Origin: Candidatus Campbellbacteria bacterium
Lineage (GTDB): Bacteria; Patescibacteriota; Minisyncoccia; Phycocordibacterales; GCA-2747955
DNA: 64,000 bases
Assembly (NCBI GenBank): GCA_947311625.1
Contig: CAMZKW010000001.1
Span: 15,776 to 79,775 of the forward strand
Reading direction: 5' to 3'
Part shown: positions 3,001 through 64,000 of the stretch, one piece after another
How the letters are laid out: each line of letters starts with the position of its first letter
Position numbering within the stretch: position 1 is the stretch's first letter
The notes under the pieces: generated by a model
What the model was told of the DNA's origin: nothing
The model's input: only the letters and a program-made list of their open reading frames with translations
Databases searched by the model: none
Made by a program: the position numbers and the translations under genes

Positions 3001-3062
3001 TTATCCACAGCTTAGCTAAAAATTTACGAAAATCTATTGACAAAAAAAAAAAACGATAAAAT
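3001..3062 (+). promoter_or_regulatory. cassette promoter (class A): ttatccaca box, then ctattgaca, an A-run, and acgataaaat
   Basis: TTGACA at 3037..3042 and TAAAAT at 3057..3062 (14-nt spacer). The motif ctattgacaaaa...aaacgat(t)ataa(t) is shared with 28999 and 40413. Confidence 0.45.
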
Positions 3063-3117
3063 TCAATAGTATCTTCTTTTTTTAAAGATGGTACAAAATT
3101 TTTAAAAGGAGGATATT

Positions 3118-3213
3118 ATGCGATCAAAACAACTTCTTATTGATTTGACAATCGGTCGTGGCTCTGGAATCACTGATAGTCAATTTGTATCGGCTGTATC
3201 GGTTACTGTCTAA
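3118..3213 (+). CDS. orphan 31-aa peptide MRSKQLLIDLTIGRGSGITDSQFVSAVSVTV behind a strong SD
   Basis: aaaaggaggatattATG. GC-richer than the flanks. A second SD (gaaaggaggatatc) with a mini-ORF follows at 3264. Confidence 0.35.
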   Translation: MRSKQLLIDLTIGRGSGITDSQFVSAVSVTV

Positions 3214-3328
3214 ATGCCAAAAAGGCAAGGTGCCAAAAAAAATAAAAAAGAAAGGAGGATATCATGATGCCTAGAGATCCCCCTTTGGGGTAAAATGTAT
3301 GAATTACAATTAGTGATTCTTTAATAAT

Positions 3329-3396
3329 GAAAAAAACAAGCCTAAAGCTTGGTTTTTTCTTTTTTGGGGTTGGCGGCGGCGTAGCCGCCGCCAACC
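3329..3396. terminator. composite hairpin element, copy 2: AT-flanked terminator hairpin plus GC palindrome ggttggcggcggc/gta/gccgccgccaacc
   Basis: The first hairpin has A-run/T-run flanks, so it is probably bidirectional. The 13-bp GC palindrome (3368..3396) lies 18 nt past the tsaD stop. Confidence 0.55.
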
Positions 3397-4616: not shown

Positions 4617-4789
4617 TTTTTAATTATAGCATTTTTTTTTTCAATGATGCTAGAGTATCATTTTCTAAAAAATCAGCTGAAGATGTTAGAAAAGTTCTAA
4701 ATCATAATTTAAAAAAACGAATATAATAAAAAAGGTAATTAAGTGAATTATAATTAATTTTAAAAAAAATAAAAATAGGAGGAAAAAAT

Positions 4790-4912
4790 ATGTTAGATGC
4801 TTTAATGGGTTTTTTGATTTGGTTTAAATGTATTTCTAAAGAAATTCAAATAGGCATTTTTCGCAAGCTCAAAAAAGGTTCAAACCCTGCAGGGCGCACA
4901 CTAAGAAAATAA
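4790..4912 (+). CDS. orphan 40-aa protein MLDALMGFLIWFKCISKEIQIGIFRKLKKGSNPAGRTLRK, SD-led
   Basis: aaataggaggaaaaaatATG. Trp is encoded by TGG. A hairpin at 4906..4931 follows. Confidence 0.4.
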   Translation: MLDALMGFLIWFKCISKEIQIGIFRKLKKGSNPAGRTLRK

Positions 4913-4931
4913 CTTTTTAAAAAGTTATTTT
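4906..4931. terminator. AT hairpin aaaataacttttt/aaaaagttatttt shared by convergent genes
   Basis: 13-bp inverted repeat read directly. It overlaps both stop codons. Confidence 0.45.
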
Positions 4932-10566: not shown

Positions 10567-10595
10567 TTGACAAATAAAATATATTATGATACAAT
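10567..10595 (+). promoter_or_regulatory. cassette promoter (class B): TTGACA, 17-nt spacer, TGaTACAAT
   Basis: cttgacaaataaaatatattatgatacaat. Near-identical to cttgacaaatagaatatatatgatacaat at 54533. Confidence 0.6.
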
Positions 10596-10635
10596 ACTAA
10601 TATATTTTGATAAGTTTTGTTTTTAAAAACAAAAA

Positions 10636-10907
10636 GGATGGCTTTGCTTCGCAAAGCCATCCAATCAAAATATAGTTGAGAAGCAGGATTTTGAAGAAAA
10701 ATATTTTGAAAACACAACCAACTCAAAATATTTTTCCTCAAAATCCTGCTTCTCAGCAGAATGATGGTAATCCATTCCAATTTTTATTGTTCATTGATGT
10801 CCTGCTCGGACGGAGAACTCAGGCAACCCTGCTCTATGGGTATAAAGATTTTGTGCATATGGGAGCACTGGTAAAAAATTCCCTAGGCTTTTAAGGAGGC
10901 CGAAAAA
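10636..10907 (+). promoter_or_regulatory. about 270-nt structured 5' leader of the 589-aa orphan gene
   Basis: GC hairpin ggatggctttgc/ttc/gcaaagccatcc (10636..10662). 32-bp hairpin at 10678..10754 with one mismatch. SD ttaaggaggccgaaaaaATG. Confidence 0.55.
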
Positions 10908-12677
10908 ATGGAAACAATTACAATTAAAACAGCCGCACATGCTACTCAAATAGATATGAAAAAATTTGAGGAGCAAATGCTGGCTGCTGAGGCCAACGGT
11001 GTGGTTGATACAATAGAGGTACCGGCACAAAAGCCGGATAGTAGGATCGTTGTTAAAAAAAGTATTAGAAGGTCCATTAGAGGCCTTTTAAAATATGAGC
11101 TGATTTTCAGAGAAAATCAGCCAGTAACAATGAATAGAAGGGGGCTACAGATGATGTATGCCCCATACATGCATCAATTCAAAGAAGTGTATGGGGAAAA
11201 CTTCTTTGACTATAATATAAATTATGGAATCTCCTCAGCATATCTAGGTTGGGGAGATGGGTTTGATTTTAAAGATGTTCCCTACGACACTGAGGTTATA
11301 GGGAAGTATGCCAAGTTGGCAAAGTTCCTTAAAGACATCATCTGGGATAATCTAGGTTATATTAGAGAATGGATTTATTCTTGTAATGGGAATGGTGTGG
11401 GAACCGTAAATGTTGGCGGTCATTATCCATGGTATGAAGATGTGGTAAAAATGCAAATGTCAGCTCATCGTCTTAATAATAAGGCTCATGCCTTAAAATT
11501 AAAAACCATGGAAAAACATGGGCGATGGATAAAAAAAGAGAGTGCTGTTAAGTTGGTACTTGAATGTCCAACTATGCCAATATCAAAATTGGCGACGGTG
11601 GCAGCAGCTAAAAGCTTAGGGTTGGAGACAACAATAACCCAGGAAAAGCTATCATTGGTTAACCAGTTCACTTCCACTGTAGATCCTTTAGAATATAAAG
11701 GAGGGTGGGGACACAACTGGCAGAAGAAGGCCCCAGAGGGAAAAATATGGATGGTAAGAAAAATCCATTCTTTCCAGGTTTCCAGAGACTCTCTCGCTTT
11801 GAGAGAAGTTGCAAAAAGAGCATCTGAAAAAGGAGAGGTGCTTGTGTTGGAAGAGCCAACTCCTGTTGGCGGCAGAGCTACTAAGAGGGTTGTTATGAAA
11901 AGAGTGGGTAATATCCACTGGAGAAAAACAACTCTATTTAGTTACCATGGAGATCCACAAGAGTATCTCTTAGATGGGTATAATCCAAGAGGATACTGGG
12001 ATGCATATAGTTGGATCCCATTCCTCCAAAAAATCCCGATCGATATATCGAGTGAGGATGAAGCTCTAATTTTAGAGCATAAGGACTTGGTGATATTCCA
12101 ACCTAAGTTAGTTGGAGGTCAAGAGGTTGTTGATGTCAAAAAGACATTGGCAAATATTGCCAAGTTCAAAAAGTCAAAAGAGGTAGAACTCGAAGGTGTA
12201 AATCTGAGAGTTCTTAGGGAATTCACTAGGAATGGATATAAATTCCAGTTTGGGTGGCAACTCGAATATGAAAATAATGTGTTGAAAGCATTATTTTCAA
12301 AACCTCAAATAATCTCTGTGAAAGAGGTAGCTACTGGTGAGATTTATCAAACCAGTAGTAAAACAATCTCCGAAGCTCTTAGATATGCAGTTGATGCATT
12401 TGAAAAAAGAGCTGCTGCGAAAGTCTTGCAGCAGGAGGTTGAAGAGGTGGCTATCCCAGAGAAAGGAGTACTTGTTTATTTACAAGACTCCTACGCAGTT
12501 GGTAACTGCCAGGTTGGGGCTGAGGCGTGGATGAGAGAGATGGGATTTTCTGGAAAGAAAATCGTACCTCTCCATGAGGTCCACGCTGCTGCTGAAGCAA
12601 GCAACAACAACTTGGCCCGTAATGTGGTCAAGTTTGTTGTTGCCAAGTATTTGGCGGCGAATAAGGAGGTTGCGTAG
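10908..12677 (+). CDS. orphan 589-aa protein with no domain I recognise; GC-rich, TGA-free, 13 TGG Trp codons
   Basis: Uninterrupted ORF behind a strong SD. Composition is clearly GC-richer than the neighbours. The TAG stop sits in the loop of hairpin 12665..12685. Confidence 0.7.
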   Translation: METITIKTAAHATQIDMKKFEEQMLAAEANGVVDTIEVPAQKPDSRIVVKKSIRRSIRGLLKYELIFRENQPVTMNRRGLQMMYAPYMHQFKEVYGENFFDYNINYGISSAYLGWGDGFDFKDVPYDTEVIGKYAKLAKFLKDIIWDNLGYIREWIYSCNGNGVGTVNVGGHYPWYEDVVKMQMSAHRLNNKAHALKLKTMEKHGRWIKKESAVKLVLECPTMPISKLATVAAAKSLGLETTITQEKLSLVNQFTSTVDPLEYKGGWGHNWQKKAPEGKIWMVRKIHSFQVSRDSLALREVAKRASEKGEVLVLEEPTPVGGRATKRVVMKRVGNIHWRKTTLFSYHGDPQEYLLDGYNPRGYWDAYSWIPFLQKIPIDISSEDEALILEHKDLVIFQPKLVGGQEVVDVKKTLANIAKFKKSKEVELEGVNLRVLREFTRNGYKFQFGWQLEYENNVLKALFSKPQIISVKEVATGEIYQTSSKTISEALRYAVDAFEKRAAAKVLQQEVEEVAIPEKGVLVYLQDSYAVGNCQVGAEAWMREMGFSGKKIVPLHEVHAAAEASNNNLARNVVKFVVAKYLAANKEVA

Positions 12678-12822
12678 CAACCTCCATGGAATCGCTGTGG
12701 TGGCGACTTCAAAAAAAAATCCACGGTTAGTGGTTATAAAAAGATATTGATTAAATATACTTTTTACTTATCCAGTTGCTAAATAAATTTTAGATATTGG
12801 TTGGTGAAATGTAAAATATTAA

Positions 12823-12849
12823 ATGGCTCGGCGCGAAGCGCCGAGCCAT
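12823..12849. terminator. GC hairpin atggctcggcgc/gaa/gcgccgagccat followed by a T-run
   Basis: 12-bp stem followed by tttttgttttttttt. Confidence 0.7.
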
Positions 12850-12877
12850 TTTTGTTTTTTTTTGATATAATATTTCT

Positions 12878-13696
12878 ATGAAAAAGCACTCTATAGAATT
12901 AAGAAAAAAAAGACTGGAAAAAAAAATAAAAAATATATTATTTTTTAAAATTTTTCCCTCTGTATTCTTATTTTCAATATTTGTATTATTTTTTAATTCT
13001 GATTATTTATCAATAAAAAAAAATGATATAGATATAAAAAATAAAAAGTATCTAGATCAAAAAAAAATAGATGAAATAGTAAATTCTATTTTAAATGAAA
13101 AATACTATAATATTTTTTCTAAAAAAAATTATTTATTTTATCCAAAAAATGAAATAAAAAATAAATTAAAGGATAATTTTAAAGAACTTAAAAGTGTAGA
13201 AATAAAAAATGGTGATTATTTTAATAATATTATTTTAAATTTAGAAGAAGAAAAAAGAAATTATATATTTTGTAAATCTAAAAAAGAAAGCCAATGCTTT
13301 GAAGTTTCATCTGAAGGTTTTATTTTTAAAAAAATAAAATATAAAACAAGTTCTAATTTAATTTTAATTTCTAATAATTATAATTTGGGAGATAATTTTT
13401 TTGAATCACAAAAAAAAAAAGAAAAAATATTCGAAATTATAAATTTTTTGAATAATATTAAAAAAGAAAAAGTGGTATTTTTAAGCAAGCCAGATAATTA
13501 TTTTTATATTTTAGAATTAAAAAATAATTTAAAAATTATTATTAGATCGAATTTTAAAAAAGATGATATTATTTTAAAAATAAATAAATTCTTTTCTAAA
13601 ATTAAATATAAAAACTTATCTTATATCAATTTTACTCTAAAGAATAGAATAAGTTATTGTGAGAAAGGTGAAATATGTGAAAAAAATTTTAAATAG
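12878..13696 (+). CDS. membrane-anchored hypothetical protein (FtsQ/DivIB-like topology), 272 aa
   Basis: One N-terminal TM, then an Asn/Lys-rich domain. tgatataat lies 6 nt before the ATG. Confidence 0.3.
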   Translation: MKKHSIELRKKRLEKKIKNILFFKIFPSVFLFSIFVLFFNSDYLSIKKNDIDIKNKKYLDQKKIDEIVNSILNEKYYNIFSKKNYLFYPKNEIKNKLKDNFKELKSVEIKNGDYFNNIILNLEEEKRNYIFCKSKKESQCFEVSSEGFIFKKIKYKTSSNLILISNNYNLGDNFFESQKKKEKIFEIINFLNNIKKEKVVFLSKPDNYFYILELKNNLKIIIRSNFKKDDIILKINKFFSKIKYKNLSYINFTLKNRISYCEKGEICEKNFK

Positions 13697-16147: not shown

Positions 16148-17039
16148 TTGTAGAAAATAATTTATTTTTTTTTAAACAAAAACTCTACCGATTAGGTAGA
16201 GTGGATGATAAAAGGGGAGTTATAAAAAGTAAGTTGTTTTAAAGTCTCTCATGACATTAATTATGTCACCGAGCCGGATTGCTCTATAAATATATTATTA
16301 TAAACTTTTTCTACTTTTTGTTGTGTAAGTAGTAAGGTTGTCGAAGATTAAATCAGTGTGGGTTGGAGTTTTTATTAATATGTATTTTATAGAAAACTAT
16401 AAAATTTAACATAAAAATCCCTCTTAATTTTTTTTAACTTCTCTCTGTTCCTCAGAGGCATTTTTATTTCAAAAAATGACTAACTATTCGTGAGGGCCAC
16501 CATGTGCTCACTTCCTATTCCCCTTGTTCTGGATAGGCACAGCTCTTGAATTGTATAAAATAATTCGCAATCAAATTTTTACAATGGGCGGCTTACTTTA
16601 TTTTGTATAATAAAGCTTTTAGGGTTACGGGACGATACTAATTTTAAAAACTAGCACATACCGACCTCCTAAAATGTAAATAATTTGATAAATAAAGTAT
16701 AGCATCTTATCTTCAGAAGTCAAGTTATTTTTAAATATGAAAGTGGATAATATGTGTATATTTTTTAATTAAACAAATCCAACCTACTCGGATGGATTAA
16801 TTATATTTAAAATAAACTACGATATATTGGTTTATTTTTTTATCTCGGCCAAAAACCTTCTTATTATATAAATTTATTAAAATAGATTGTGGTGGGGTTT
16901 TATAGAAGTCGTAAGCAGAAATAAAGAGGATCTTACTTTTTGTAAAAAAGAAAATTAAAAAAATATACTAAACTTTTATAGTTTGGTATATTTTTTAGTA
17001 GTTTTTTATTTTTATATCTTTTTGAATTATTATTTAATC
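16148..17039. other. 0.9-kb gap with no long ORF, moderately GC-enriched, with many stem-loops: decayed cassette or unknown ncRNA
   Basis: The minus strand carries TTGACT, a 16-nt spacer and tgcTATACT (about 16722..16695), then taggaggtcggtATGtgcTAG (16659..16651). No RNase P, tmRNA or SRP signature was found. Confidence 0.3.
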
Positions 17040-17957
17040 TTATTTTTTATTATGAAATTTATTGTGAATTTCTTTTAGATATTTATCTGAAATATTTGTA
17101 TAAACTTGGGTAGTATTTATGGAAGCATGACCCAGTAGCATTTGGACCGAACGGATATCTGCTCCATTTTGAAGTAAGTCAGTGGCAAAAAAGTGTCTAA
17201 TGGTATGAGGGGTGACTTTCTTCATGATCCCTGCTTCTGAAGATCTTTTTTGAATTATCCTCTGAACTGCTCTTGGCTGTATTCTATTTCCTTGAGAGCT
17301 TAAAAATAGAGCTTCATTTAAAACTTTATTTTCTTGTTTCCCTCTTTCTTCTAGATATTTTTTAGTTCATTTTTTCGCATCATCGGAAAGAAAAACTAAT
17401 CTAACTTTTTCACCTTTTCCTCTAATGGAAAACTCATCTTCGTTCAAATCTAAATCATCGTTTAAAGAGCATAGCTCGGAAACACGAAGTCCTGTGGAGT
17501 ACAACATTTCCAAAATTGCCTTATCTCTAATATTTTCTAATTTTTTAGAATTATTTTTAAGTGGTGCCTTCATTAGTCTTTCGAATTCATTTCTTGAAAT
17601 TAAATCTAGTTCTCTTTGGCTGGTTTTTGCTAATTCAATTTTTTCTGGAGCTAAGGTTTTAATATCATTTTTTGAAAGATACTTTAGGAATGCCCTTAGA
17701 GCAATTAAATGATAATTTTGAGTATTTTTTTTTAGAGATTCATTTTTATAATTTTCTTGTCTATTTAATCAAAGACGAAATTCTCTTACTTTATCTAAAC
17801 TTATTTTTTCTATTTTTTCTATTTTAGAAAAAATAAAAAATTTTTCTAAATATCTATTGTAATTTTCTACAGTTTTTAGGGAACGACCTTTTTCAATTTC
17901 TAGATATTCTAAAAAACGTTTTTTAAGCAAATATATTTCTTTTTTATTTTGCGACAT
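17040..17957 (-). CDS. tyrosine recombinase XerC/XerD family, 305 aa, two in-frame TGA
   Basis: HTIRHFFATDLLQNGADIRSVQMLLGHASINTTQVYT. Both junctions were translated by hand. Confidence 0.85.
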
Positions 17958-19356: not shown

Positions 19357-20472
19357 TTAAAAAAGTTTTTTTAAAATCATTTTTTTTTCAAAAAATTTAT
19401 TTTTAATTTTATTAGCATTTATTTTTATTTTTTCTAAAGAGTCTTTCACAAACATGATATCATTTTCTTCTTGGATGCTCATAAGATTATAAATGTTTTC
19501 TTCATTTTTTTTACTTATATCTTCAATTTCATCTAATATATTGTGAAAATTTTCAGAAGATATCGCTTCTTCTTCTTTAAGTTCTTTATAATATTTTTTT
19601 AAAATTTTATTTTCTTCATATGCTGTCTTTAGAGATATAGACAGTTTTTCTTTTATCTTATTCTCTTTTTTTAATTTTATTTTTTGATTATTTATTTCTT
19701 TTATATATTTTTTATTTTCTTCTAATTTTTTAGATATTTCTTTGTCTATAAAAATATTTTTATCATTTATTTTTTTAAATTCAGATTCTTTATGTTTTAT
19801 TTTTTTTTCAATTTTAAAAATATTTTCCTTTATTTCATTTTTTTGAATAGTGTATTCTTCATTTTCCTTTAGGATATCATTTCTAATATTATTTAATAAA
19901 TTTAAATTTTCTTTTTCACTTTTTATCAATAAATTTAAATTTTCTTCCTTTTCTTTAATAATATTAGCTCTATTTTTCATTATATTTAAATCATCTTTTA
20001 AATTTTTTATTTGATTATTTAAAATATCTATTTCATTTTGAACAAGTGATATTTCTTTTTTTAATGAAATAGTTTTTTCTTCCAAAAGATCTCTTTTTTT
20101 TAGTACGCTATTGATTTTTAATTTTAAATCTTTATTTTCTATTTTTAAGTTTGAGATATTTTCTTCTTTTTTTAGAATTATATTTTCTTTATCAAATAAA
20201 ATATTTTTATTTTCTTTATATTTTTCTTCTTCACCGATGCAATCATTTTTTATTTTTTCCAAAGAAGTATTTAGGTTTTTATTTTCTAATTCTAAAAATT
20301 TTATATCTTTTGAATAATTATTTGATTCTTTTTCTAGTGATTCTATATCGTTATAAAAATTTTTATTTAATATCTTTTTTTGATTTAATTGAAATGTCTT
20401 TATTTTATTTTGATTTTTTAAAAATAATGAAATTTTTGAAATCTTTTTTTTCTTAATAATTTTACTCATCAT
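19357..20472 (-). CDS. Lys/Glu/Asn-rich coiled-coil protein, 371 aa
   Basis: Uninterrupted ORF with heptad-like low-complexity sequence. Confidence 0.5.
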   Translation of the reverse strand: MMSKIIKKKKISKISLFLKNQNKIKTFQLNQKKILNKNFYNDIESLEKESNNYSKDIKFLELENKNLNTSLEKIKNDCIGEEEKYKENKNILFDKENIILKKEENISNLKIENKDLKLKINSVLKKRDLLEEKTISLKKEISLVQNEIDILNNQIKNLKDDLNIMKNRANIIKEKEENLNLLIKSEKENLNLLNNIRNDILKENEEYTIQKNEIKENIFKIEKKIKHKESEFKKINDKNIFIDKEISKKLEENKKYIKEINNQKIKLKKENKIKEKLSISLKTAYEENKILKKYYKELKEEEAISSENFHNILDEIEDISKKNEENIYNLMSIQEENDIMFVKDSLEKIKINANKIKNKFFEKKMILKKLF

Positions 20473-27016: not shown

Positions 27017-27337
27017 ATGAATATAAAAATAGAAAAAATGAATAATTATCTTTTAAATAAACATAATAAAGTTTTTATTTCTTTTTCCATATCTATTTTT
27101 ATATTATCAATTATTTATGTATATTTTTTATTTATGTCAGTATCTTATACATATGCTTCAGAAAAAAAATCCTATTTATTAAATACTTTAATTACAGAAA
27201 ATGTTGAAAATAAAAATTATATTTTTAAAAAAGAATTAGAATCAGAATCAAAATTAATTACAAAAAATTTTGTTAATATAGAAAAAATAAAATATATAAA
27301 TAGAACAAACCCGGTAGTTGTTAAATTAAGTAAATAA
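27017..27337 (+). CDS. small single-TM protein in the ftsL position
   Basis: Gene order is mraZ-rsmH-this gene. One TM, then a short periplasmic segment. Confidence 0.35.
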   Translation: MNIKIEKMNNYLLNKHNKVFISFSISIFILSIIYVYFLFMSVSYTYASEKKSYLLNTLITENVENKNYIFKKELESESKLITKNFVNIEKIKYINRTNPVVVKLSK

Positions 27338-28919: not shown

Positions 28920-28934
28920 AAAGAAAAAATAAAA

Positions 28935-29025
28935 AAAGAGCGCGCCTTCGGCGCGCTCTTTTTATAAAAAATTTATACACAACTTTGTCAATATTCTATT
29001 GACAAAAGAAAAAAACGATTATAAT
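28935..29025 (+). repeat. terminator-promoter module, copy A: hairpin aaagagcgcgcc/ttc/ggcgcgctcttt plus ttatacaca box plus ctattgaca, 15-nt spacer, tataat
   Basis: About 90 nt align with 40345..40439 with few substitutions. TTGACA at 28999..29004 and TATAAT at 29020..29025. Confidence 0.7.
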
Positions 29026-29084
29026 GTAAAAAGTCAAATAGTTGGAAAATTAATTTTCTTAATCAAAATAAAAAAGGAGAAAAA

Positions 29085-29495
29085 ATGGAATATGGGCAAT
29101 TAATATTAGGATTACTATTCTGTTTAGGATTATTAATCCCGATAGTAGGACTAGTAGTGGCGCTCATAAACTCTGATAGTTTATGGGAAAGAATCGAACT
29201 CTTAATGATTGGTACATTATTTATCATCATTATTGCATGTATACCATACATGCTTATTGTAACCTCTATTTATGATGAAAGAGAAGAGGATACAATTACT
29301 TCAAGGCAGACCCTTGAAGGTGTAAGAAGTGGGTCAGAAACCCACGGGTCAGGAGGCCTATTTACCTTCTTAATTCAGTCTTCCGATAACTATATTGGCT
29401 GGAGGAAGAAGGATGGTGGCTTGCAAAAATTTTCCATGCCTCAAAGCTCGATAGTTTACGAGGAGGATGACTTGAAACATTCTGGATACTACTAG
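29085..29495 (+). CDS. orphan 136-aa protein with two N-terminal TM segments; SD-led and TGA-free; the frame stays open 37 codons past its TAG
   Basis: aaaaaggagaaaaaATG. Extension 29496..29606 ends in TAG TAG at the foot of hairpin 29611..29631. Confidence 0.55.
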   Translation: MEYGQLILGLLFCLGLLIPIVGLVVALINSDSLWERIELLMIGTLFIIIIACIPYMLIVTSIYDEREEDTITSRQTLEGVRSGSETHGSGGLFTFLIQSSDNYIGWRKKDGGLQKFSMPQSSIVYEEDDLKHSGYY

Positions 29496-29727
29496 GAAAG
29501 GTGTATCAGAAAAAAGTACTATCTTGACGGTAGTACTGGGTGGGATAAATGTAGATATGAGATTCATGTTCCAAAAGGGACGGTGAATCTCGAGTTTAAT
29601 GTTAAGTAGTAGGTTGCGACGTAGTTGCAACCAATTTTTTTAATAAAAAGGATAGTTTTAACTGATAATTATGAAAAAGAGTATTTCTTTTATAAAAAAA
29701 AAAATAATTAAATTATTTTTTTATTTG

Positions 29728-30464: not shown

Positions 30465-30641
30465 ATGGCTTTTGATTACGAAAAGTATAAAAGAAAAAAG
30501 AAGAAAGAAAAGGTGTTGTGCAATATTTCTGATTCTGATGTTGTTAAAAAACCAATATTCTTATCTAGAAAAAGAAAAAGAAATACTCTCGAGGGTGGTA
30601 ATTTTGAAGAATATTATTTTGCAGATAATGGAAAGGATTAG
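30465..30641 (+). CDS. orphan 58-aa basic protein, SD-led, TAG stop
   Basis: aaaaaggagagtctATG. Contains KRKRNTLEGG. Confidence 0.4.
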   Translation: MAFDYEKYKRKKKKEKVLCNISDSDVVKKPIFLSRKRKRNTLEGGNFEEYYFADNGKD

Positions 30642-30834
30642 TTATGTCTTACTCAGAAAAAATATACTTGAGAAATACAGATATAAAAAAACTAATATAT
30701 TTGTAAAAATAATTATTTTTTTAAAAACCCTCTTTATTTCTTTTAGAAAAAAAAATAGTTTAGAGAAAGAGTATTTTGATATAGATGTCAAAAGAGATAG
30801 GACTACCCTAGAAGGAGGCGAGGTGATAAAATAA
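30628..30834 (+). CDS. orphan 68-aa protein in a second frame ending KRDRTTLEGGEVIK
   Basis: The decapeptide KR-x-R-x-TLEGG is repeated with mostly synonymous third-position differences relative to 30570..30599. Confidence 0.3.
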   Translation: MERISYVLLRKNILEKYRYKKTNIFVKIIIFLKTLFISFRKKNSLEKEYFDIDVKRDRTTLEGGEVIK

Positions 30835-37992: not shown

Positions 37993-38352
37993 ATGAGATA
38001 TTATAAAAAAAAAATAATTAAAAATAAAAAGTATTTTATATCTATACTTTCTTTTTTAGTTTTAATTATGTTGGGAATTTTAGGTAAATTATTTTTCTTT
38101 TTTGATAATTATTTAATTTATTTTTTAGTATTTTTTATTTTAATAATTTTATTTTATATAATTTTTTTAGTACAAAATAAGAAGTTTAAAAAATTTTATT
38201 ATGAAGCTGTTGAGGAAGATTTAATTTTATCTAAAAAGGTAAAAGAAGAAAATATCGATTATTTTTATTTAGATAAAATTATAAAAATAATTTCTATCTT
38301 AATAATAACAGGGTATCTGGTATACTACTTTAAAAAAATTATAAAATTTTAG
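37993..38352 (+). CDS. small membrane protein, 119 aa
   Basis: Two or three hydrophobic helices. Confidence 0.35.
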   Translation: MRYYKKKIIKNKKYFISILSFLVLIMLGILGKLFFFFDNYLIYFLVFFILIILFYIIFLVQNKKFKKFYYEAVEEDLILSKKVKEENIDYFYLDKIIKIISILIITGYLVYYFKKIIKF

Positions 38353-40313: not shown

Positions 40314-40344
40314 AAAATCAAATATGTTTTTTGAAAAATAATAA

Positions 40345-40439
40345 AAAAGAGCGCGCCTTCGGCGCGCTCTTTTTAAAATAAAAAACTTATACATAGCTTT
40401 ATCAATATACTATTGACAAAAAAAAAAAACGATTATAAT
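40345..40439 (+). repeat. terminator-promoter module, copy B (paralog of 28935..29025)
   Basis: aaaagagcgcgcc/ttc/ggcgcgctctttt, ttatacata box, TTGACA at 40413..40418, TATAAT at 40434..40439. Confidence 0.7.
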
Positions 40440-40502
40440 ACAAAAAGGTAAAGGTGGAATAATTTTAAATTCTCAACAAAATTAAATATAAAAGGAAGAT
40501 TG

Positions 40503-40868
40503 ATGAAAAGAATTTTTGCTTTAGGCTTATTGAGCCTGCATATTTTTTGGATCGTAAGTTGCTTTATTCACTTTCCAGCAGATAAAGTTAGCATGGTATT
40601 TTGGCTAACTGTTCTATTTATAATTGGATTTATTGTAATCTCATTATATAAATATAATAATGAAGTTGACCCTGATTCCAAAAAAGAAATGTCCGAATTA
40701 ATATCGGAGTTTTTAAGTGGGACATTGCTTTTCCTAATTTTTGGAATCGTCACTGCAATAGCAGGGCAATTTGTTCTTGTTCTGCTAAACATCATAATTG
40801 CAATTTGTTATTTTGCCTTTTTGATGGCAGTAGTGGTAGTCATCAATAAATGTTTTGATAAACGATGA
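40503..40868 (+). CDS. orphan 121-aa four-TM protein; SD-led; its only stop in this frame is TGA
   Basis: aaaaggaagattgATG. Trp is TGG twice. If TGA is read as Trp, the frame runs on through two hairpins to about 41030. Confidence 0.45.
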   Translation: MKRIFALGLLSLHIFWIVSCFIHFPADKVSMVFWLTVLFIIGFIVISLYKYNNEVDPDSKKEMSELISEFLSGTLLFLIFGIVTAIAGQFVLVLLNIIIAICYFAFLMAVVVVINKCFDKR

Positions 40869-40982
40869 CATTCTTGGGGCCTTCAATTCAAGATAGGTCC
40901 CTCTTTTTACTTAATTAAAAAAAATCTATTAAACCAAAACTTTTTTTGAGTTTTGGTTTGTTTTTTTATTAAAAAAAAAAAG

Positions 40983-41003
40983 GGGTGGCGCGCAGCGCCA
41001 CCC
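40983..41003. repeat. GC palindrome gggtggcgc/gca/gcgccaccc
   Basis: Same arms as 42345..42365. Preceded by AT hairpin aaaccaaaact/ttttttg/agttttggttt at 40931..40959. Confidence 0.6.
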
Positions 41004-41012
41004 TAATTTTAT

Positions 41013-42376: not shown

Positions 42377-42404
42377 TTGACTTTATAAAAAAATATGATA
42401 TTAT
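42377..42404 (+). promoter_or_regulatory. cassette promoter (class C): TTGACT, 16-nt spacer, tgaTATTAT
   Basis: attttgactttataaaaaaatatgatattat. Similar to attttgacttaattttataaaaatgttattat at 63785. Confidence 0.5.
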
Positions 42405-42435
42405 TATTTTAGACAAAAAATACAAAGGAGATAAT

Positions 42436-42942
42436 ATGTCTGAACAAAAAAAAACTACCCCAGTGGTTATGGTGTTTTGTTATGAGGGTTTGATATTAGA
42501 TGAGGTTGGTAAATATTTTCAACCAGAGAACACATCATGCATTGAAGGATTTGTGGAGTTAGAAATTCCTGAAAACCCTGAAATTCAATTTTTTGGGCCT
42601 CAGGCTGGTTTTGGAAAAATCCAAATTGCTGTAGTTGATGTAGTGGATATTTTTGGAAAAAATATCCAAGTAAAACCCTACGAAGAGTTTAACAACTTTG
42701 AGATTAGGGTTTTAGAGATTGCTGTTAAAAAAGGTTTAATCACCTTTGATAAGGCAAATGATATTTTATCACTGAAATATCATTGTGATGATGTTCAGTC
42801 ATCCGTTGCAGCAAAAACTGTGAGAAAACGTATCACAGGCGGTATGGTTAAAGTACAAGAAGATTCTGCTTGTTTAAAACATGAAGATGAATTTTCTCAA
42901 TGGTCAAAAACAAGCAAGGAGGTTCGAGGATTTGTTCCATAA
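42436..42942 (+). CDS. orphan 168-aa protein; SD-led and TGA-free; the frame stays open 56 codons past its TAA
   Basis: caaaggagataatATG. Extension 42943..43110 ends at TAA 43111, whose last two bases start the next gene's SD (aaaggag, 43112..43118). Confidence 0.55.
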   Translation: MSEQKKTTPVVMVFCYEGLILDEVGKYFQPENTSCIEGFVELEIPENPEIQFFGPQAGFGKIQIAVVDVVDIFGKNIQVKPYEEFNNFEIRVLEIAVKKGLITFDKANDILSLKYHCDDVQSSVAAKTVRKRITGGMVKVQEDSACLKHEDEFSQWSKTSKEVRGFVP

Positions 42943-43124
42943 GAAAACTTGTTTTCAGAAGCAACAAAGGATGAAAATGGATTTGATGGAAAATCACCAT
43001 TAAGAAGTGGTAGTTTTTCAAGACCACCAAGTAATATTGATATTGATCCTTTTGATGATATGGGTGGATGTAGCAACCCAAATCTTGTGGATCCAAAAAG
43101 TATGCATAGATAAAGGAGTATACT

Positions 43125-43427
43125 ATGACGACAGTGGCAGAATTAGCAGAGTTGGCTGGTGGGCATCTGAGAATTGGGAAATACCTCAATAAAAATCCAG
43201 AAGTTCTTTCGGAATTTTTGGAAGGTGAGACAGAGGCCTCACAGGTGAGAGAATTTGCCGTGACATATTTAGCGGATTACAACAAATTATATTCAGAGGC
43301 TATGGATAGAGTGAAATTTCTCTCTTTTTTTAGAAAAGAAGGAAGTCCTGTATTGAGTAAGATTGAAAATGGCATTGCTATGAAAAATCCCATAGAGACT
43401 TTTGGATATAAATATGTTCCTCCATAG
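43125..43427 (+). CDS. orphan 100-aa protein, SD-led, TAG stop
   Basis: aaaggagtatactATG. GC-richer composition. Confidence 0.5.
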   Translation: MTTVAELAELAGGHLRIGKYLNKNPEVLSEFLEGETEASQVREFAVTYLADYNKLYSEAMDRVKFLSFFRKEGSPVLSKIENGIAMKNPIETFGYKYVPP

Positions 43428-43511
43428 GGGATGGAGGATGCTGTTCCTAAAGGAGAGGAACATTTTTAAGGAAAATTATTCCTTGAAGGCACTTTTTAAT
43501 TAAGTGTCTTT

Positions 43512-43590
43512 TTTTTTCGGCTGAAATTTTATTTAGAAAAAGTAGCGGCGTAGCCGCTACTTTTTCTAAATAAAATTTCAGCCGAAAAAA
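43512..43590. repeat. 79-nt perfect hairpin: 38-bp stem with a gta loop
   Basis: ttttttcggctgaaattttatttagaaaaagtagcggc / gta / exact reverse complement. The core gcggc-gta-gccgc is shared with 3368 and 3854. Confidence 0.85.
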
Positions 43591-45137: not shown

Positions 45138-45674
45138 ATGATTGAAGTACCATTGAATTGAATTTTTATAAATCCAGCAATAGATATTTTTATTTTTATT
45201 TTTATATCCTATTTATTTTTATTTAGGTATTATAAAATGCTTTTAGATAAAAATTTCAAAAAGATTTCTTGAATTGATTTAGAAGTATCAATTATTTTTA
45301 TAGCACTTGGATATTTAAATTATTCAGAAATAACTATAAATATTTTTAATTTTAAAACTGATTGATTTTTTACAGTTATTTTTATTCAATTAATAATTGA
45401 AACTATTTTTATATTTATATATTGAAAATATTTTAAAATATATTTAGAAAAAATAAAAAAAACTTCAGAAATTATTGAAGAAGAAAATCTAGAAAAAACA
45501 ATTTCAGAATTAAAAACAATACAGAATTTATTGGAAGATGATTTAAATAAATATAAAATACAGGGAAATAAAAATTCTATTGATAAAATGTCTAGTGAAG
45601 TTGAAAAAATTGAAGTAGAAATTTTAAAACTTCAAAAAAAATTGAGAAATTTGAAAAAGAAAAAAAATGATTAA
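45138..45674 (+). CDS. membrane protein with coiled-coil tail, 178 aa, four in-frame TGA
   Basis: Hand translation. Overlaps the next gene by 8 nt. Confidence 0.35.
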
Positions 45675-46885: not shown

Positions 46886-46956
46886 GGGGAGTTAGTTAAA
46901 TGGTATAACCGCGGTCTCCAAAACCGCTATTAGAAGTTCGATTCTTCTACTCCTCG
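46886..46956 (+). tRNA. tRNA-Trp(CCA)
   Basis: ggggagt ta gtta aatggtat aac c gcggt ctCCAaa accgc ... discriminator G. Confidence 0.8.
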
Positions 46957-46999
46957 CAAAAATAAAAATATACTATTTTTTTAGTGTATTTTTTATTTG

Positions 47000-47070: not shown

Positions 47071-47168
47071 ATACTTTTTTAAAGTGAAAGTATTTTAACA
47101 TTTTTTATTTAAAAAATAAAGAGAAAAAAAATATAAATTTTATTTAAAATTTATATTTTTTACTTTTG

Positions 47169-47239
47169 CAGGCGATGGGGGAATCGAACCCACAACGACG
47201 GTTTTGAAGACCGTAGTTTTACCGTTAAACTAATCGCCT
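47169..47239 (-). tRNA. tRNA(UCA) with Trp-like identity; reads UGA
   Basis: aggcgat ta gttt aacggta aaac t acggt ctTCAaa accgt ... atcgcct g. A1:U72 plus G73 as in bacterial tRNA-Trp. The anticodon arm nearly matches that of the CCA tRNA. Confidence 0.8.
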
Positions 47240-54533: not shown

Positions 54534-54561
54534 CTTGACAAATAGAATATATATGATACAA
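54534..54561 (+). promoter_or_regulatory. cassette promoter (class B, paralog of 10567): TTGACA, 16-nt spacer, tgaTACAAT
   Basis: cttgacaaatagaatatatatgatacaat. Confidence 0.6.
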
Positions 54562-54602
54562 TGTATTTAGTCAAATAAAGAAATACTTTTTTATATAAAA
54601 AA

Positions 54603-54848
54603 GGGGCTGGTTCGCGAAGCGAACCAGCCCCTAAACCCCAACAGGATTTTGGTTTTTAATATTTAGAAATTAAAATCCTGTTTGGGTTTGCCTACTCAAA
54701 CAGGAATCTTGGAAAGCGGGAGGCAACTCTCTTTCTAAGATTTATATAAAAAGGTAGAGGTGCTCCAATGATGAGCTAATAAAGGCAGAAAAAAACTGCT
54801 AAGGCAAAGGCTGAAATTAAATTGAGCCCTTGAGGAGGGGCAAAAAAA
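54603..54848 (+). promoter_or_regulatory. about 245-nt structured leader, same architecture as 10636..10907
   Basis: GC hairpin ggggctggttcgc/gaa/gcgaaccagcccc. Hairpin aacaggatttt...aaaatcctgtt at 54640..54682. SD ttgaggaggggcaaaaaaaATG. Confidence 0.55.
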
Positions 54849-55205
54849 ATGAGGATTTTACTTGTTATTATGATGGCAATAGTGTCAATGGCACAAGAAA
54901 TTGACATAAGGGAATTGCTCATACAAAAACACCCTTGTATGAGTATGAAAAAATATGATACAAAGGATGTCTTGAAGAGACAAAAAAAAATTATTTATTC
55001 CAAGCGTTACAAACGTTTGCAATATATAAAAATGTTAGATAGGAGGCTTGAAGAGTGTAGAAAAGTTTCTCCTTTTTTAGCAAAAATAAGATTCCAGGAA
55101 TTATCAAAAAGAGATCGATATGATCTCTTAAAGTATGTTAGCCATACTTCATTTTTGGAATATAATAACAGGCCTCCTTCATCTGGTACGGGGGCAAGTA
55201 AGTAG
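54849..55205 (+). CDS. orphan 118-aa basic protein with signal-like N-terminus, SD-led, TAG stop
   Basis: MRILLVIMMAIVSMAQE.... GC-richer than the flanks. No TGA. Confidence 0.5.
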   Translation: MRILLVIMMAIVSMAQEIDIRELLIQKHPCMSMKKYDTKDVLKRQKKIIYSKRYKRLQYIKMLDRRLEECRKVSPFLAKIRFQELSKRDRYDLLKYVSHTSFLEYNNRPPSSGTGASK

Positions 55206-55302
55206 TTAACCCACATAGATGTGGTGTCGTTAATAAAAAATTGGCTATGTGGTTCATAGCCAGTCGGTTATGAGTTTACATAGTCAATCGGTTAGATTGA
55301 TT

Positions 55303-63761: not shown

Positions 63762-63787
63762 TCTTTCTGCTTTTTTTTATTAAAATT

Positions 63788-63816
63788 TTGACTTAATTTT
63801 ATAAAAATGTTATTAT
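63788..63816 (+). promoter_or_regulatory. cassette promoter (class C): TTGACT, 17-nt spacer, tgtTATTAT
   Basis: Read directly. Similar to 42377. Confidence 0.5.
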
Positions 63817-63851
63817 TTAAAATGTAAATTCAAAATTGTAAAGGAGTAGAA

Positions 63852-64000
63852 ATGAATTATACAACAGAAAATATCGGACCATTAACTTTGGTCACGATAA
63901 TTACCGAAAGAGGTATTAAAGTGACGGGAGCATATATGGAAGATTTTCTTCCAGAGATGCAAGCAGCATTAGGTGCTACTTTATCAAGAGACCCTGGATC
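63852..64000 (+). CDS. orphan SD-led ORF where rpsS would be expected; partial at the window end
   Basis: aaaggagtagaaATG. MNYTTENIGPLTLVTIITERGIKVTGAYMEDFLPEMQAALGATLSRDPG. GC-richer composition. Confidence 0.45.
   Translation, partial: MNYTTENIGPLTLVTIITERGIKVTGAYMEDFLPEMQAALGATLSRDPG

What the first reader, a model, noticed from the sequence alone, without database searches (positions are those of the whole stretch)
10567..12849. Dispersed GC-rich, Shine-Dalgarno-led, TGA-free orphan cassettes in a leaderless UGA=Trp genome
Ten loci share a syntax that the housekeeping genes lack. The loci are 3037-3396, 4790-4931, 10567-12849, a decayed one on the minus strand at 16722-16150, 28999-31 (that is 28999-29631), 30465-30834, 40413-41003, 42377-43590, 54534-55300 and 63788 to the window end. 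Most have an upstream sigma70-like promoter; those at 4790 and 30465 lack a clear one. Several have long leaders. All have a strong AAGGAGG-type SD, a visibly higher GC than their neighbours and GC-palindrome boundaries. Their proteins match no family I recognise. Across about 1,400 codons they contain no internal TGA, and all 19 or so Trp codons are TGG. By my hand count the host genes use TGA for roughly three quarters of Trp. Highly expressed host genes such as tuf and the r-protein genes use TGA and have no SD, so expression level does not explain the difference. The parsimonious reading is recently acquired or mobile DNA that evolved under the standard code. A more speculative reading is that the cassettes are built to be decoded by a standard-code translation system, for example in a phage stage or in a partner cell of an episymbiont. 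The 589-aa gene is the flagship.
Basis: partly seen in the sequence, partly recalled or inferred. Interest (0 to 1): 0.88.

Follow-up and report, generated by a model that had tools for sequence, protein, structure and literature searches.

The report
Foreign SD-led genes in recoded CPR bacterium
A tiny AT-rich Paceibacterota (CPR) bacterium that reads UGA as tryptophan and starts most genes without a leader also carries a scattered second class of GC-richer, Shine-Dalgarno-led, UGA-free accessory genes, whose largest member belongs to a protein family also found on standard-code phage-like contigs, which points to gene traffic across a genetic-code boundary.

Summary
In 62 housekeeping genes Trp is TGA 104 times and TGG 30 times. 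None has an SD core, 33 have a -10 box 4-10 nt before the ATG, and median GC3 is 0.15. Eleven cassette ORFs (1,419 codons) have 0 TGA and 19 TGG, all have an SD, and GC3 is 0.22-0.56 (Fisher p=2e-11).

The host is a Paceibacterota bacterium. UGA=Trp is real and young in this clade: sister lineages are leaderless but use only TGG.

The 589-aa flagship is not a true orphan. About 25 protein clusters share its C-terminal domain. Members sit on a jumbo-phage-like contig with phiKZ-type RNA polymerase genes and on other phage-like contigs. Those contigs use SDs, TGA stops and TGG only.

Two strains 98.9% identical differ by presence or absence of the flagship. Relatives keep the same promoter and terminator "slot" with different cargo. 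A 310-nt structured leader is 87% conserved in front of proteins only 33% identical.

Best reading: moron-like accessory genes drawn from a standard-code, phage-linked pool and turned over by recombination at conserved slots. "Recent import" is too simple, because the flagship appears to have co-diverged with its flanks. Decoding in a partner cell has no support.

The parts
10567..10595 (+). Flagship promoter, TTGACA-17-TACAAT with a TG extension ('family A' promoter), divergent from dnaB
   Evidence: 11/12 match. The same promoter sits at the orthologous site in relatives L013, L014 and L015 and again at 54534 in the window.
10596..10907 (+). About 310-nt structured 5' leader. Hairpin 1 is at 10636-10662, long hairpin 2 at about 10675-10759, the motif CTGCTCTATGGG at 10829-10840, and the SD AAGGAGG at about 10893-10899 inside a small hairpin.
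   Evidence: MFE -116.9 kcal/mol, z = -10.3. It is 87% identical to L008:1-318. Of 92 consensus pairs, 12 carry compensatory double changes and none is broken by a substitution; one falls at an alignment gap. No Rfam family matches. Hairpin 1 also scores as a minus-strand terminator.
10908..12677 (+). Flagship ORF: 589 aa, GC 0.41, GC3 0.38, 13 TGG and 0 TGA, TAG stop
   Evidence: The family was found and aligned. The C-terminal 180 aa are modelled at pLDDT 84-96.
12678..12851 (+). 3' UTR. One hairpin spans the stop codon (GGTTGC-GTA-GCAACC), a second is at about 12691-12708, and the intrinsic terminator is at 12821-12851.
   Evidence: The hairpins are conserved in L087 and L008, with a compensatory change.
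54534..55300 (+). Second family-A cassette: near-identical promoter (54534-54562), leader with hairpin 1 and hairpin 2, SD inside a hairpin, and a 118-aa ORF at 54849-55205
   Evidence: (z = -9.6).
28925..29631 (+). Family-B cassette: host-type terminator, then promoter ATTGAC-A4GA7-CGAT-TATAAT with the palindrome GTCAATA-TTC-TATTGAC over the -35, a short leader, an SD, and a 136-aa membrane-type ORF at 29085-29495
   Evidence: 28925-29073 is 83% identical to 40334-40486.
40334..41003 (+). Family-B cassette: promoter with an A12 tract between -35 and -10, and an ORF from 40503. The likely original stop is TGA at 40866-40868, followed by a terminator hairpin. Read with code 4, the frame runs 45 codons further through two terminators.
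3033..3396 (+). Family-B promoter (A12 spacer) with two SD-led mini-ORFs (31 aa at 3118-3213; 9 aa at 3264-3293) and two terminators
4711..4931 (+). Family-B leader remnant (no -35) with an SD-led 40-aa ORF at 4790-4912 and a terminator
42377..43590 (+). Two-ORF cassette: promoter TTGACT-N17-TATTAT, a 168-aa ORF at 42436-42942, a 100-aa ORF at 43125-43427, and a 38-bp perfect inverted repeat at 43512-43590
   Evidence: (I16). A homologue at 57% identity sits behind the same terminator and a similar promoter in relative L082.
30465..30834 (+). Weak member: an SD-led 58-aa ORF (30465-30641), GC3 0.22, no clear promoter
16150..16722 (-). ORF-less unit: promoter TTGACT-17-TATACT, then an SD and a 2-codon ORF, then about 500 nt with no ORF
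63788..64000 (+). Cassette directly after rplB: promoter-like TTGACT..TATTAT, an SD, and an ORF from 63852 that is cut off by the window end
47168..47239 (-). tRNA with anticodon UCA, which decodes UGA as Trp (context for the code)

Best explanation
The loci are autonomous, moron-like accessory transcription units in the chromosome of a Paceibacterota (CPR) bacterium. Each has a -35/-10 sigma-70-type promoter, a leader, an SD, one or two ORFs and an intrinsic terminator.

The core genes of this bacterium are leaderless or SD-less and were recently recoded to UGA=Trp. The cargo genes come from, and probably keep exchanging with, a gene pool written in the standard code with SD-led initiation. 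That pool includes phages, jumbo-phage-like ones among them, and standard-code sister lineages. This origin explains why the cargo is GC-richer, uses only TGG for Trp, and has no in-frame TGA.

The cargo sits in conserved intergenic slots: promoter-leader modules of two repeated families at the 5' end and hairpins or terminators at the 3' end. It is gained, lost and swapped by recombination between those conserved flanks.

Shown: the composition, SD and TGA dichotomy; UGA=Trp; phage-contig homologues of the flagship; strain-level presence or absence; conserved slots with different cargo; a conserved structured leader.

Inferred: the direction and mechanism of transfer; that host ribosomes use the SDs; that continuing gene flow rather than selection keeps the genes TGA-free; all protein functions.
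For: 1. Dichotomy.

2. Host identity and code. DnaB homologues are named Pacebacteria, Campbellbacteria or Paceibacterota. TGA falls at an invariant Trp. The tRNA-UCA anticodon arm equals that of tRNA-Trp. Sister lineages L076 and L078 (DnaB 74% and 70% identical) are 28% GC and leaderless. They use TGG only (40:0 and 43:0) and almost never use TGA as a stop (0/17 and 1/27). They also carry SD-led, GC-richer orphan ORFs.

3. Flagship family. 25 clusters at E<=1e-3, aligned. P0132 lies next to two phiKZ-type RNAP beta genes (phrog_3295 E=1e-131; phrog_3015 E=1e-108) and an NAD ligase on a 78-kb contig. L009 and L088 are also phage-like. On L011 and L009 most genes have SD-like motifs upstream, stops include TGA (4/23 and 3/16), and Trp is TGG 50:0 and 16:0. 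The family member on L010 itself ends in TGA. The only structural match is a Myoviridae protein (E=1.4e-4).

4. Turnover. L087 carries the flagship homologue at the same locus. L013 is 98.9% identical over 2,079 nt but lacks it. L015 has the same promoter and hairpin 1 followed by a different SD-led ORF.

5. Mosaic structure. The leader is 87% identical between the window and L008, while the proteins are 33% identical.

6. Repeated promoter-leader modules sit in front of unrelated ORFs.

7. The 40503 ORF most naturally ends at a TGA followed by a terminator, a leftover of the standard code.
Against: The window and L087 flagship copies are as diverged as their flanks: 72.7% against 72.4% nucleotide identity, and four-fold sites 29/47 same against 40/67 for L25 and 109/189 for dnaB (that last comparison is to L013). 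This suggests long residence. Yet GC3 (0.36-0.42) and TGG-only usage persist, which a simple import-then-amelioration model does not predict.

Only the flagship has a demonstrated phage link. The other cargo proteins have no informative homologues.

Six of the 19 TGG codons carry all the code evidence outside the flagship.

No integrase, attachment site or transposase was seen next to the cassettes. The 16S anti-SD and prfB are outside the window.
Confidence: 0.55

Rival explanations
1. The cassettes are a resident, vertically inherited class of regulated accessory genes (membrane or surface proteins, unknown functions). Their -35 promoters, structured leaders and SDs give a control regime different from the constitutive leaderless core. 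Higher GC and TGG-only usage would be kept by selection, for example on mRNA structure or on decoding, rather than by foreign origin.
For: The flagship appears to have co-diverged with its flanks. Slots, promoters and leaders are conserved in relatives. The same gene class exists in standard-code sister lineages. The leaders are strongly structured and sequester the SD. Family-B promoters carry an operator-like palindrome and an A12 spacer tract.
Against: No known selective force keeps GC3 at 0.38 and bans TGA in a 27% GC, UGA=Trp genome whose highly expressed genes use TGA. Flagship relatives are on phage-like, standard-code contigs. There is strain-level presence or absence. The coding region has been replaced behind a nearly identical leader.
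Confidence: 0.2
2. The flagship unit is itself a previously undescribed mobile or selfish module that moves between phages and CPR chromosomes. It would consist of a conserved ~24-nt 5' motif, the family protein and 3' hairpins. The other cassettes would be unrelated islets.
For: The motif CTCA(A)GGCCGTC-CTGCTCTATGGG lies 76-321 nt upstream of the family gene in all five independent contexts that have upstream sequence. The proteins there are only about 20-33% identical to the flagship. The gene is GC-richer than its neighbours even inside the phage contigs: GC3 0.40 against about 0.24 on L011, and 0.33 against about 0.27 on L009. It always has a long non-coding region upstream.
Against: No recombinase, transposase or nuclease signature was found in Pfam, PDB, PHROGs, PADLOC or fold searches. 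No terminal repeats or target-site duplications were seen. The motif may simply be a promoter or operator; a -10-like box follows it. The upstream regions on the phage contigs are only weakly structured (z = -2.0 and -3.3).
Confidence: 0.15
3. One reading: the cassettes are written to be translated by a standard-code system outside this cell, either in the partner cell of an episymbiont or during a phage stage.
For: The cargo is code-neutral: no TGA in frame, and mostly TAA or TAG stops. A phage connection exists for the flagship. Standard-code or TGA-avoiding phages of recoded CPR bacteria have been described (PMC10746230).
Against: The cassettes sit singly in the chromosome behind host-lineage promoters and terminators. 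There are no packaging, secretion or transfer genes nearby. The same class occurs in standard-code sister lineages, where no code barrier exists. No observation requires this reading.
Confidence: 0.05
4. Artefact: chimeric assembly or chance ORFs in GC-rich non-coding RNA regions.
For: Several loci hold only tiny ORFs or none (3118, 3264, 4790, 16722). Leaders and hairpins account for much of the local GC.
Against: A 589-codon ORF with 32 off-frame TGAs and none in frame is not chance. The flagship has homologues at the same locus in independent assemblies, and the 168-aa protein has a homologue behind the same host-type terminator in a relative. The cassettes are flanked on both sides by host genes in one contig.
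Confidence: 0.05

Closest known systems
Morons (autonomous extra transcription units in phage and prophage genomes; from my own knowledge of the Hendrix-group literature)
   Same: A single gene or gene pair with its own promoter and terminator. Base composition differs from the neighbours. The unit is present or absent between close relatives. Function is usually unknown or accessory.
   Different: Here the units lie in a bacterial chromosome between housekeeping genes, not inside a prophage. They reuse two repeated promoter-leader modules. They also differ from the host in initiation mode (SD against leaderless) and in stop and Trp codon usage.
Standard-code or TGA-avoiding phages of recoded CPR bacteria (Liu et al. 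2023, mBio, PMC10746230)
   Same: Genetic material compatible with both the standard code and a UGA-sense code because it avoids in-frame TGA. It is associated with CPR hosts that recoded UGA.
   Different: Those are whole phage genomes of Gracilibacteria and Absconditabacteria (UGA=Gly), linked to hosts by CRISPR spacers. Here the material is isolated chromosomal genes in a Paceibacterota with UGA=Trp. No spacer evidence was available.
Phase-variable surface-protein genes with a homopolymer in the promoter spacer (for example Mycoplasma hyorhinis vlp; from my own knowledge)
   Same: A UGA=Trp, AT-rich minimal bacterium. Repeated and highly conserved promoter/5' regions sit in front of variable small membrane proteins. 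A poly(A) tract (A12) lies between -35 and -10 in the family-B modules.
   Different: No length variation has been shown. The tracts are the same length in all copies, and one is interrupted by a G. There are no lipoprotein signal peptides or repeats. This is a resemblance only.
Integron gene cassettes
   Same: Variable cargo at a conserved site, and tandem occupancy in one relative (flagship plus ORF89 in L087).
   Different: Each unit has its own promoter. No attC-like shared recombination site and no intI were seen. The slots are scattered rather than arranged in one array.

Membership tests
Moron-like horizontally acquired transcription unit | Own promoter upstream of the gene | tested here: met
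   TTGACA-17-TACAAT at 10567. -35/-10 pairs at 54534, and by inspection at 3037, 28999, 40413, 42377, 16722 and 63788. Absent or unclear at 4790 and 30465.
Moron-like horizontally acquired transcription unit | Own terminator downstream | tested here: met
   12821-12851. Hairpin plus T-run after the other ORFs.
Moron-like horizontally acquired transcription unit | Base composition and codon usage deviate from the flanking genes | tested here: met
   GC3 0.22-0.56 against a host median of 0.15. TGA 0 and TGG 19 against 104 and 30.
Moron-like horizontally acquired transcription unit | Present or absent between closely related genomes | tested here: met
   L087 against L013, which are 98.9% identical. 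Different cargo in L015. Shown for the flagship slot only.
Moron-like horizontally acquired transcription unit | Located inside a phage or prophage genome | tested here: not met
   The neighbours are dnaB, L25, SecY, r-protein genes, tuf and tRNAs. No phage structural genes were seen in the window.
Gene of standard-code (table 11) origin | No in-frame TGA; Trp encoded only by TGG | tested here: met
   Also 3 TGG and 0 TGA in the L087 homologue.
Gene of standard-code (table 11) origin | TGA used as a stop codon | tested here: inconclusive
   One candidate in the window (40866-40868, followed by a terminator). A family member on L010 ends in TGA, and L011 and L009 use TGA stops. The flagship itself ends in TAG.
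Integron gene cassette | Promoterless ORF with an attC site next to intI/attI | tested here: not met
   The units carry their own promoters. Repeat searches found only promoter-leader modules and terminators, with no shared 3' recombination site. No integron integrase was seen; only a XerC-like gene at 17040-17957.
Phase-variable promoter (slipped-strand) | Homopolymer or short repeat between -35 and -10 | tested here: met
   A12 at 3042-3053 and at 40418-40429, and A4GA7 at 28999. Two of the seven homopolymers of 11 nt or more in the window lie in these spacers.
Phase-variable promoter (slipped-strand) | Tract length varies between cells or strains and switches expression | not testable with these tools
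   This needs read-level population data or experiments. The three copies have equal overall length.
Known RNA family (Rfam) for the flagship leader | Match to a curated covariance model | tested here: not met
   Only tRNAs reach the gathering score. Sub-threshold hits are generic hairpins.
Known protein family or defence system for the flagship | Significant match in Pfam, PDB, PADLOC or PHROGs | tested here: not met
   Pfam none. PDB sequence none. PDB fold E>0.05. PADLOC none. PHROGs gave only a weak hit, phrog_1196, E=2e-4 to 3e-3 in 3 of 8 members.

The most novel reading that the evidence does not exclude
This Paceibacterota clade combines three things.

(i) A UGA-to-Trp recoding that I could not find reported for Patescibacteria, caught next to sister lineages in which TGA is nearly extinct.

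(ii) A code-neutral accessory gene pool kept TGA-free and GC-rich, either by continuing exchange with standard-code phages or by selection for such exchange. The pool is inserted in conserved expression slots whose promoter-leader modules are reused.

(iii) A new module shared between phages and CPR chromosomes: a ~24-nt control motif, a 310-nt structured leader in the CPR copies, and a 350-590-aa protein family with a DSxxxGNCxxGT C-terminal domain. This module may itself be mobile or autoregulated.
Probability: 0.3. Interest if true: 0.8.

Novelty: new variant of a known kind. Interest (0 to 1): 0.58.

Why it matters
If the reading is right, this genome shows gene traffic across a genetic-code boundary. 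Within one contig, core genes have flipped 78% of their Trp codons to TGA, while accessory genes from a standard-code, phage-linked pool have flipped none. That bears directly on whether recoding really isolates a lineage from phages and horizontal transfer.

The genome also shows two translation-initiation regimes side by side, leaderless and SD-led, which can be tested with ribosome profiling.

Three concrete items follow: a likely unreported UGA=Trp clade in the CPR, a new protein family shared between jumbo-phage-like contigs and CPR chromosomes, and a strongly conserved structured leader RNA.

Tried and rejected
- The flagship gave no hit in Pfam, PDB sequence search (single protein and profile), PADLOC, GenBank phages by tblastn, or Foldseek against PDB. 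The single-sequence AlphaFold model was useless (pLDDT 33).
- The word-indexed homologue search found only the query itself. The exhaustive HMMER search was needed to find the family.
- A GTDB representative scan with DnaB returned only unrelated Bdellovibrionales and Kiloniellaceae at 38-42% identity.
- IMG/VR and JGI metagenome scans with the C-terminal domain patterns found no relatives. The full-length family alignment was too divergent to seed a scan.
- Scanning IMG/VR for the family-A promoter gave 60 contigs. They are unrelated phages with a near-consensus extended -10 promoter, and none has the cassette leader. I rejected this as evidence of phage origin.
- Scanning metagenomes for the host-type terminator found four short contigs from GC-richer, TGG-only relatives. 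They added nothing.
- The idea that the leader is a large RNA element shared with the phage copies is rejected. The upstream regions on the phage contigs fold weakly (z = -2.0 and -3.3) and only the short motif is shared.
- The idea that the GC palindromes mark cassette borders is rejected. They are general terminators.
- No release-factor gene lies in the window, and no 16S 3' end lies in any fetched locus. RF2 loss and the anti-SD therefore could not be checked.
Full report
**What the window is**

The window is 27% GC and densely packed with genes. It carries tRNA-Trp(CCA) at 46886-46957 and a tRNA with anticodon UCA at 47168-47239 on the minus strand. Read with TGA as a sense codon, it encodes ordinary core genes:
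- TsaD, acetate kinase, DnaB, L25, a XerC-like recombinase, FtsH, GatB and EF-Tu;
- ribosomal proteins S8, L6, S10 and L2, plus SecY.

DnaB homologues are named Pacebacteria, Campbellbacteria or Paceibacterota. The host is therefore a CPR bacterium of the Paceibacteria group.

**UGA = Trp**

UGA means Trp here, not Gly. The single TGA in dnaB falls on a Trp that is invariant in all ten homologues aligned, including standard-code ones. The tRNA(UCA) anticodon arm is identical to that of tRNA-Trp(CCA) apart from the wobble base. From my own knowledge of the E. coli sequences, the TGAs in tuf, secY and rplB also fall at conserved Trp positions.

The recoding is young and restricted to one clade. 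Relatives with DnaB 91-92% identical also have in-frame TGA. Relatives at 70-74% identity (L076, L078) have the same 28% GC and the same leaderless layout, but they use TGG only (40:0 and 43:0) and almost never use TGA as a stop (0/17 and 1/27). That is the pattern expected from codon capture.

Recent surveys list UGA-to-Trp only in Bacillota, Pseudomonadota, Verrucomicrobiota and Actinomycetota (PMC13462651; PMC8629427). A literature search for Patescibacteria with stop-codon reassignment and tryptophan found nothing.

**Checking the observation**

| Measure | 62 host ORFs | 11 cassette ORFs |
|---|---|---|
| Codons | 16,166 | 1,419 |
| Trp codons TGA / TGG | 104 / 30 | 0 / 19 |
| SD core at -20..-4 | 0/62 | 11/11 |
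| -10 box ending 4-10 nt before the ATG | 33/62 | 0/11 |
| GC3 | median 0.147, max 0.24 | 0.22-0.56 |

The Trp-codon contrast gives Fisher p = 2e-11. Even allowing for the cassettes' higher G-ending fraction (0.345), 19/19 TGG has p of about 2e-9. The flagship has 0/11/21 TGAs in frames 1/2/3, so the absence is specific to the reading frame. The SD contrast is partly circular, because SD was used to pick the cassettes. The association of SD with GC3 and with TGA absence is not circular.

Four corrections to the finding:
- The GC hairpins are the genome's general intrinsic terminators and follow host genes too (family D7).
- The locus at 16722-16150 has no ORF. The loci at 30465 and 4790 are weak.
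- The ORF at 40503 contains TGA if read on to its TAA. Its natural end is the TGA at 40866-40868, which is followed by a terminator hairpin. That looks like a standard-code stop now read through in a code-4 host. This step is inferred.
- The flagship is not a true orphan.

**The flagship (10567-12851)**

The unit consists of:
- a near-consensus promoter at 10567-10595;
- a leader of about 310 nt that folds far better than shuffled controls (z = -10.3), with the SD inside a small hairpin;
- a 589-aa ORF;
- a 3' UTR with hairpins and a terminator at 12821-12851.

The word-indexed search found only the query itself. The exhaustive HMMER search found 25 clusters. They share a C-terminal domain of about 100 aa with an invariant D-S-x3-G-N-C-x2-G-T signature and several central motifs. 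With that alignment, AlphaFold models the C-terminal 180 residues at pLDDT 84-96. No PDB fold matches. One Myoviridae protein matches at E = 1.4e-4.

Where other members are encoded is the informative part:
- P0132 lies on a 78-kb contig beside two phiKZ-type RNA-polymerase beta genes (phrog_3295 E=1e-131; phrog_3015 E=1e-108), an NAD-dependent ligase and a helicase.
- P0126 and P0127 lie on contigs made of many small co-directional ORFs without Pfam hits.
- On L011 and L009 most genes have SD-like motifs upstream, stops include TGA (4/23 and 3/16), and Trp is TGG only (50:0 and 16:0).
- The family member on L010 itself ends in TGA.

**Slots and turnover**

In relatives L013, L014 and L015 the same promoter sits divergent from dnaB. 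In L013 the same terminator also precedes the next gene. The content between them differs:
- L015 has hairpin 1 followed directly by a different SD-led ORF.
- L013 has about 500 nt with no obvious ORF.

L087, a Paceibacterota MAG, has the closest flagship homologue at the same locus, followed by a further SD-led 89-aa ORF. L087 is 98.9% identical to L013 over 2,079 nt, yet L013 lacks both genes. This is a strain-level presence/absence difference.

L008 carries a leader 87% identical to the window's, in front of a family protein only 33% identical. The two leaders share 92 consensus base pairs, 12 of them with compensatory double changes, and no pair is broken by a substitution.

Within the window, the same promoter-leader design recurs at 54534 in front of an unrelated 118-aa ORF. 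A second module recurs at 3033, 4711, 28925 and 40334. It has the promoter ATTGAC-A12-CGAT-TATAAT and, in two copies, an operator-like palindrome over the -35. The 42377 cassette has a 57%-identical homologue behind the same host-type terminator and a similar promoter in a relative.

**A complication**

The window and L087 copies of the flagship are as diverged as the flanking host genes: 72.7% against 72.4% nucleotide identity. Four-fold sites are the same in 29/47 positions, against 40/67 for L25 and 109/189 for dnaB, the last measured against L013. The gene was therefore probably already in this slot in their common ancestor. Even so, both copies keep GC3 at 0.36-0.42 and TGG-only usage.

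Simple "recent import, not yet ameliorated" does not explain this. One possibility is that alleles are repeatedly replaced from the external standard-code pool; the mosaic L008 allele is direct evidence for such replacement. The other is that selection maintains the foreign dialect. I favour gene flow, but I cannot exclude selection.

**A conserved motif**

A motif of about 24 nt, CTCA(A)GGCCGTC-CTGCTCTATGGG, lies 76-321 nt upstream of the family gene in every context that has upstream sequence: the window, L008, L009, L011/L012 and L088. The proteins there are only about 20-33% identical to the flagship. It also occurs in one IMG/VR contig that lacks the gene. A -10-like box follows it. It could be a promoter (perhaps for a phage polymerase), an operator or an element end. 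The phage upstream regions are otherwise weakly structured. This remains unexplained.

**Verdict**

The statistical observation is real. The loci are moron-like accessory units drawn from a phage-linked, SD-using, standard-code pool. They sit in conserved chromosomal slots that gain, lose and swap cargo.

Three points are not supported: "recent" in the simple sense, GC palindromes as a distinguishing mark, and decoding in a partner cell. The closest described phenomenon is the set of standard-code or TGA-avoiding phages of recoded CPR bacteria (PMC10746230). Functions of all cargo proteins remain unknown.

Noticed in passing
whole window; tRNAs at 46886-46957 (+) and 47168-47239 (-); loci L076, L078: UGA-to-Trp recoding in a Paceibacterota (Patescibacteria) clade. 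The surveys I could read do not list it. Sister lineages at 70-74% DnaB identity are still TGG-only with TGA almost unused as a stop, which is a textbook codon-capture intermediate.
   Followed up: partly
window 10829-10840; L008:237; L009:6423; L011:9752; L012:577; L088:1513; L080 (minus strand): A motif of about 24 nt, CTCA(A)GGCCGTC-CTGCTCTATGGG, followed by a -10-like box, lies upstream of every flagship-family gene that has upstream sequence. The proteins are only about 20-33% identical to the flagship. It could be a promoter, an operator or an element end; this is unresolved.
   Followed up: partly
window 10596-10907 and 54563-54848; L008:1-312: A highly structured leader RNA of about 300 nt (z about -10), with 12 compensatory pair changes between two copies and the SD held in a hairpin. 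It matches no Rfam family and is a candidate new cis-regulatory RNA.
   Followed up: partly
window 3042-3053, 28999-29015, 40418-40429: The family-B cassette promoters have an A12 tract (one copy interrupted by a G) that fills most of the -35/-10 spacer. In two copies there is also a palindrome, GTCAATA-N3-TATTGAC, over the -35. This is the architecture of slipped-strand phase variation and/or repressor control. Length variation was not tested.
   Followed up: no
window 40866-41006: The membrane-protein ORF that starts at 40503 has an in-frame TGA just before a terminator hairpin. Under the host's code the frame continues for 45 codons through two terminators. It is probably a standard-code stop that is now read through.
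   Followed up: partly
window 42940-43125: After the TAA stop of the 168-aa ORF, the same frame stays open for 60 more codons up to the SD of the next ORF. This suggests a recent nonsense mutation (CAA to TAA) or a split gene.
   Followed up: no
window 63762-64000: An SD-led cassette with its own promoter-like site sits immediately after rplB (L2), where rpsS would normally continue the S10 operon. It is cut off by the window end.
   Followed up: no
window 12878-13696, 19357-20472, 27017-27337, 37993-38352, 45138-45674: Several host ORFs are extremely AT-rich (13-16% GC) and Lys/Asn/Ile-rich, well below the 27% average. The 272-aa gene after the flagship is only 43% identical to its orthologue in L013, whereas DnaB is 92% identical.
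   Followed up: no
window 10636-10662 and 54605-54636: Hairpin 1 of the family-A leaders is preceded by a conserved A-run, so on the opposite strand it reads as a canonical intrinsic terminator facing into the cassette. Why a reverse terminator is conserved just downstream of the promoter is unclear. It may insulate dnaB from antisense transcription.
   Followed up: no
L011:10001-11581 and L009:6744-8084: Even inside the phage-like contigs the flagship-family gene is GC-richer than its neighbours (GC3 0.40 against about 0.24; 0.33 against about 0.27). It lacks a strong SD there and follows a long non-coding gap, which hints that the gene is itself a mobile insert.
   Followed up: partly
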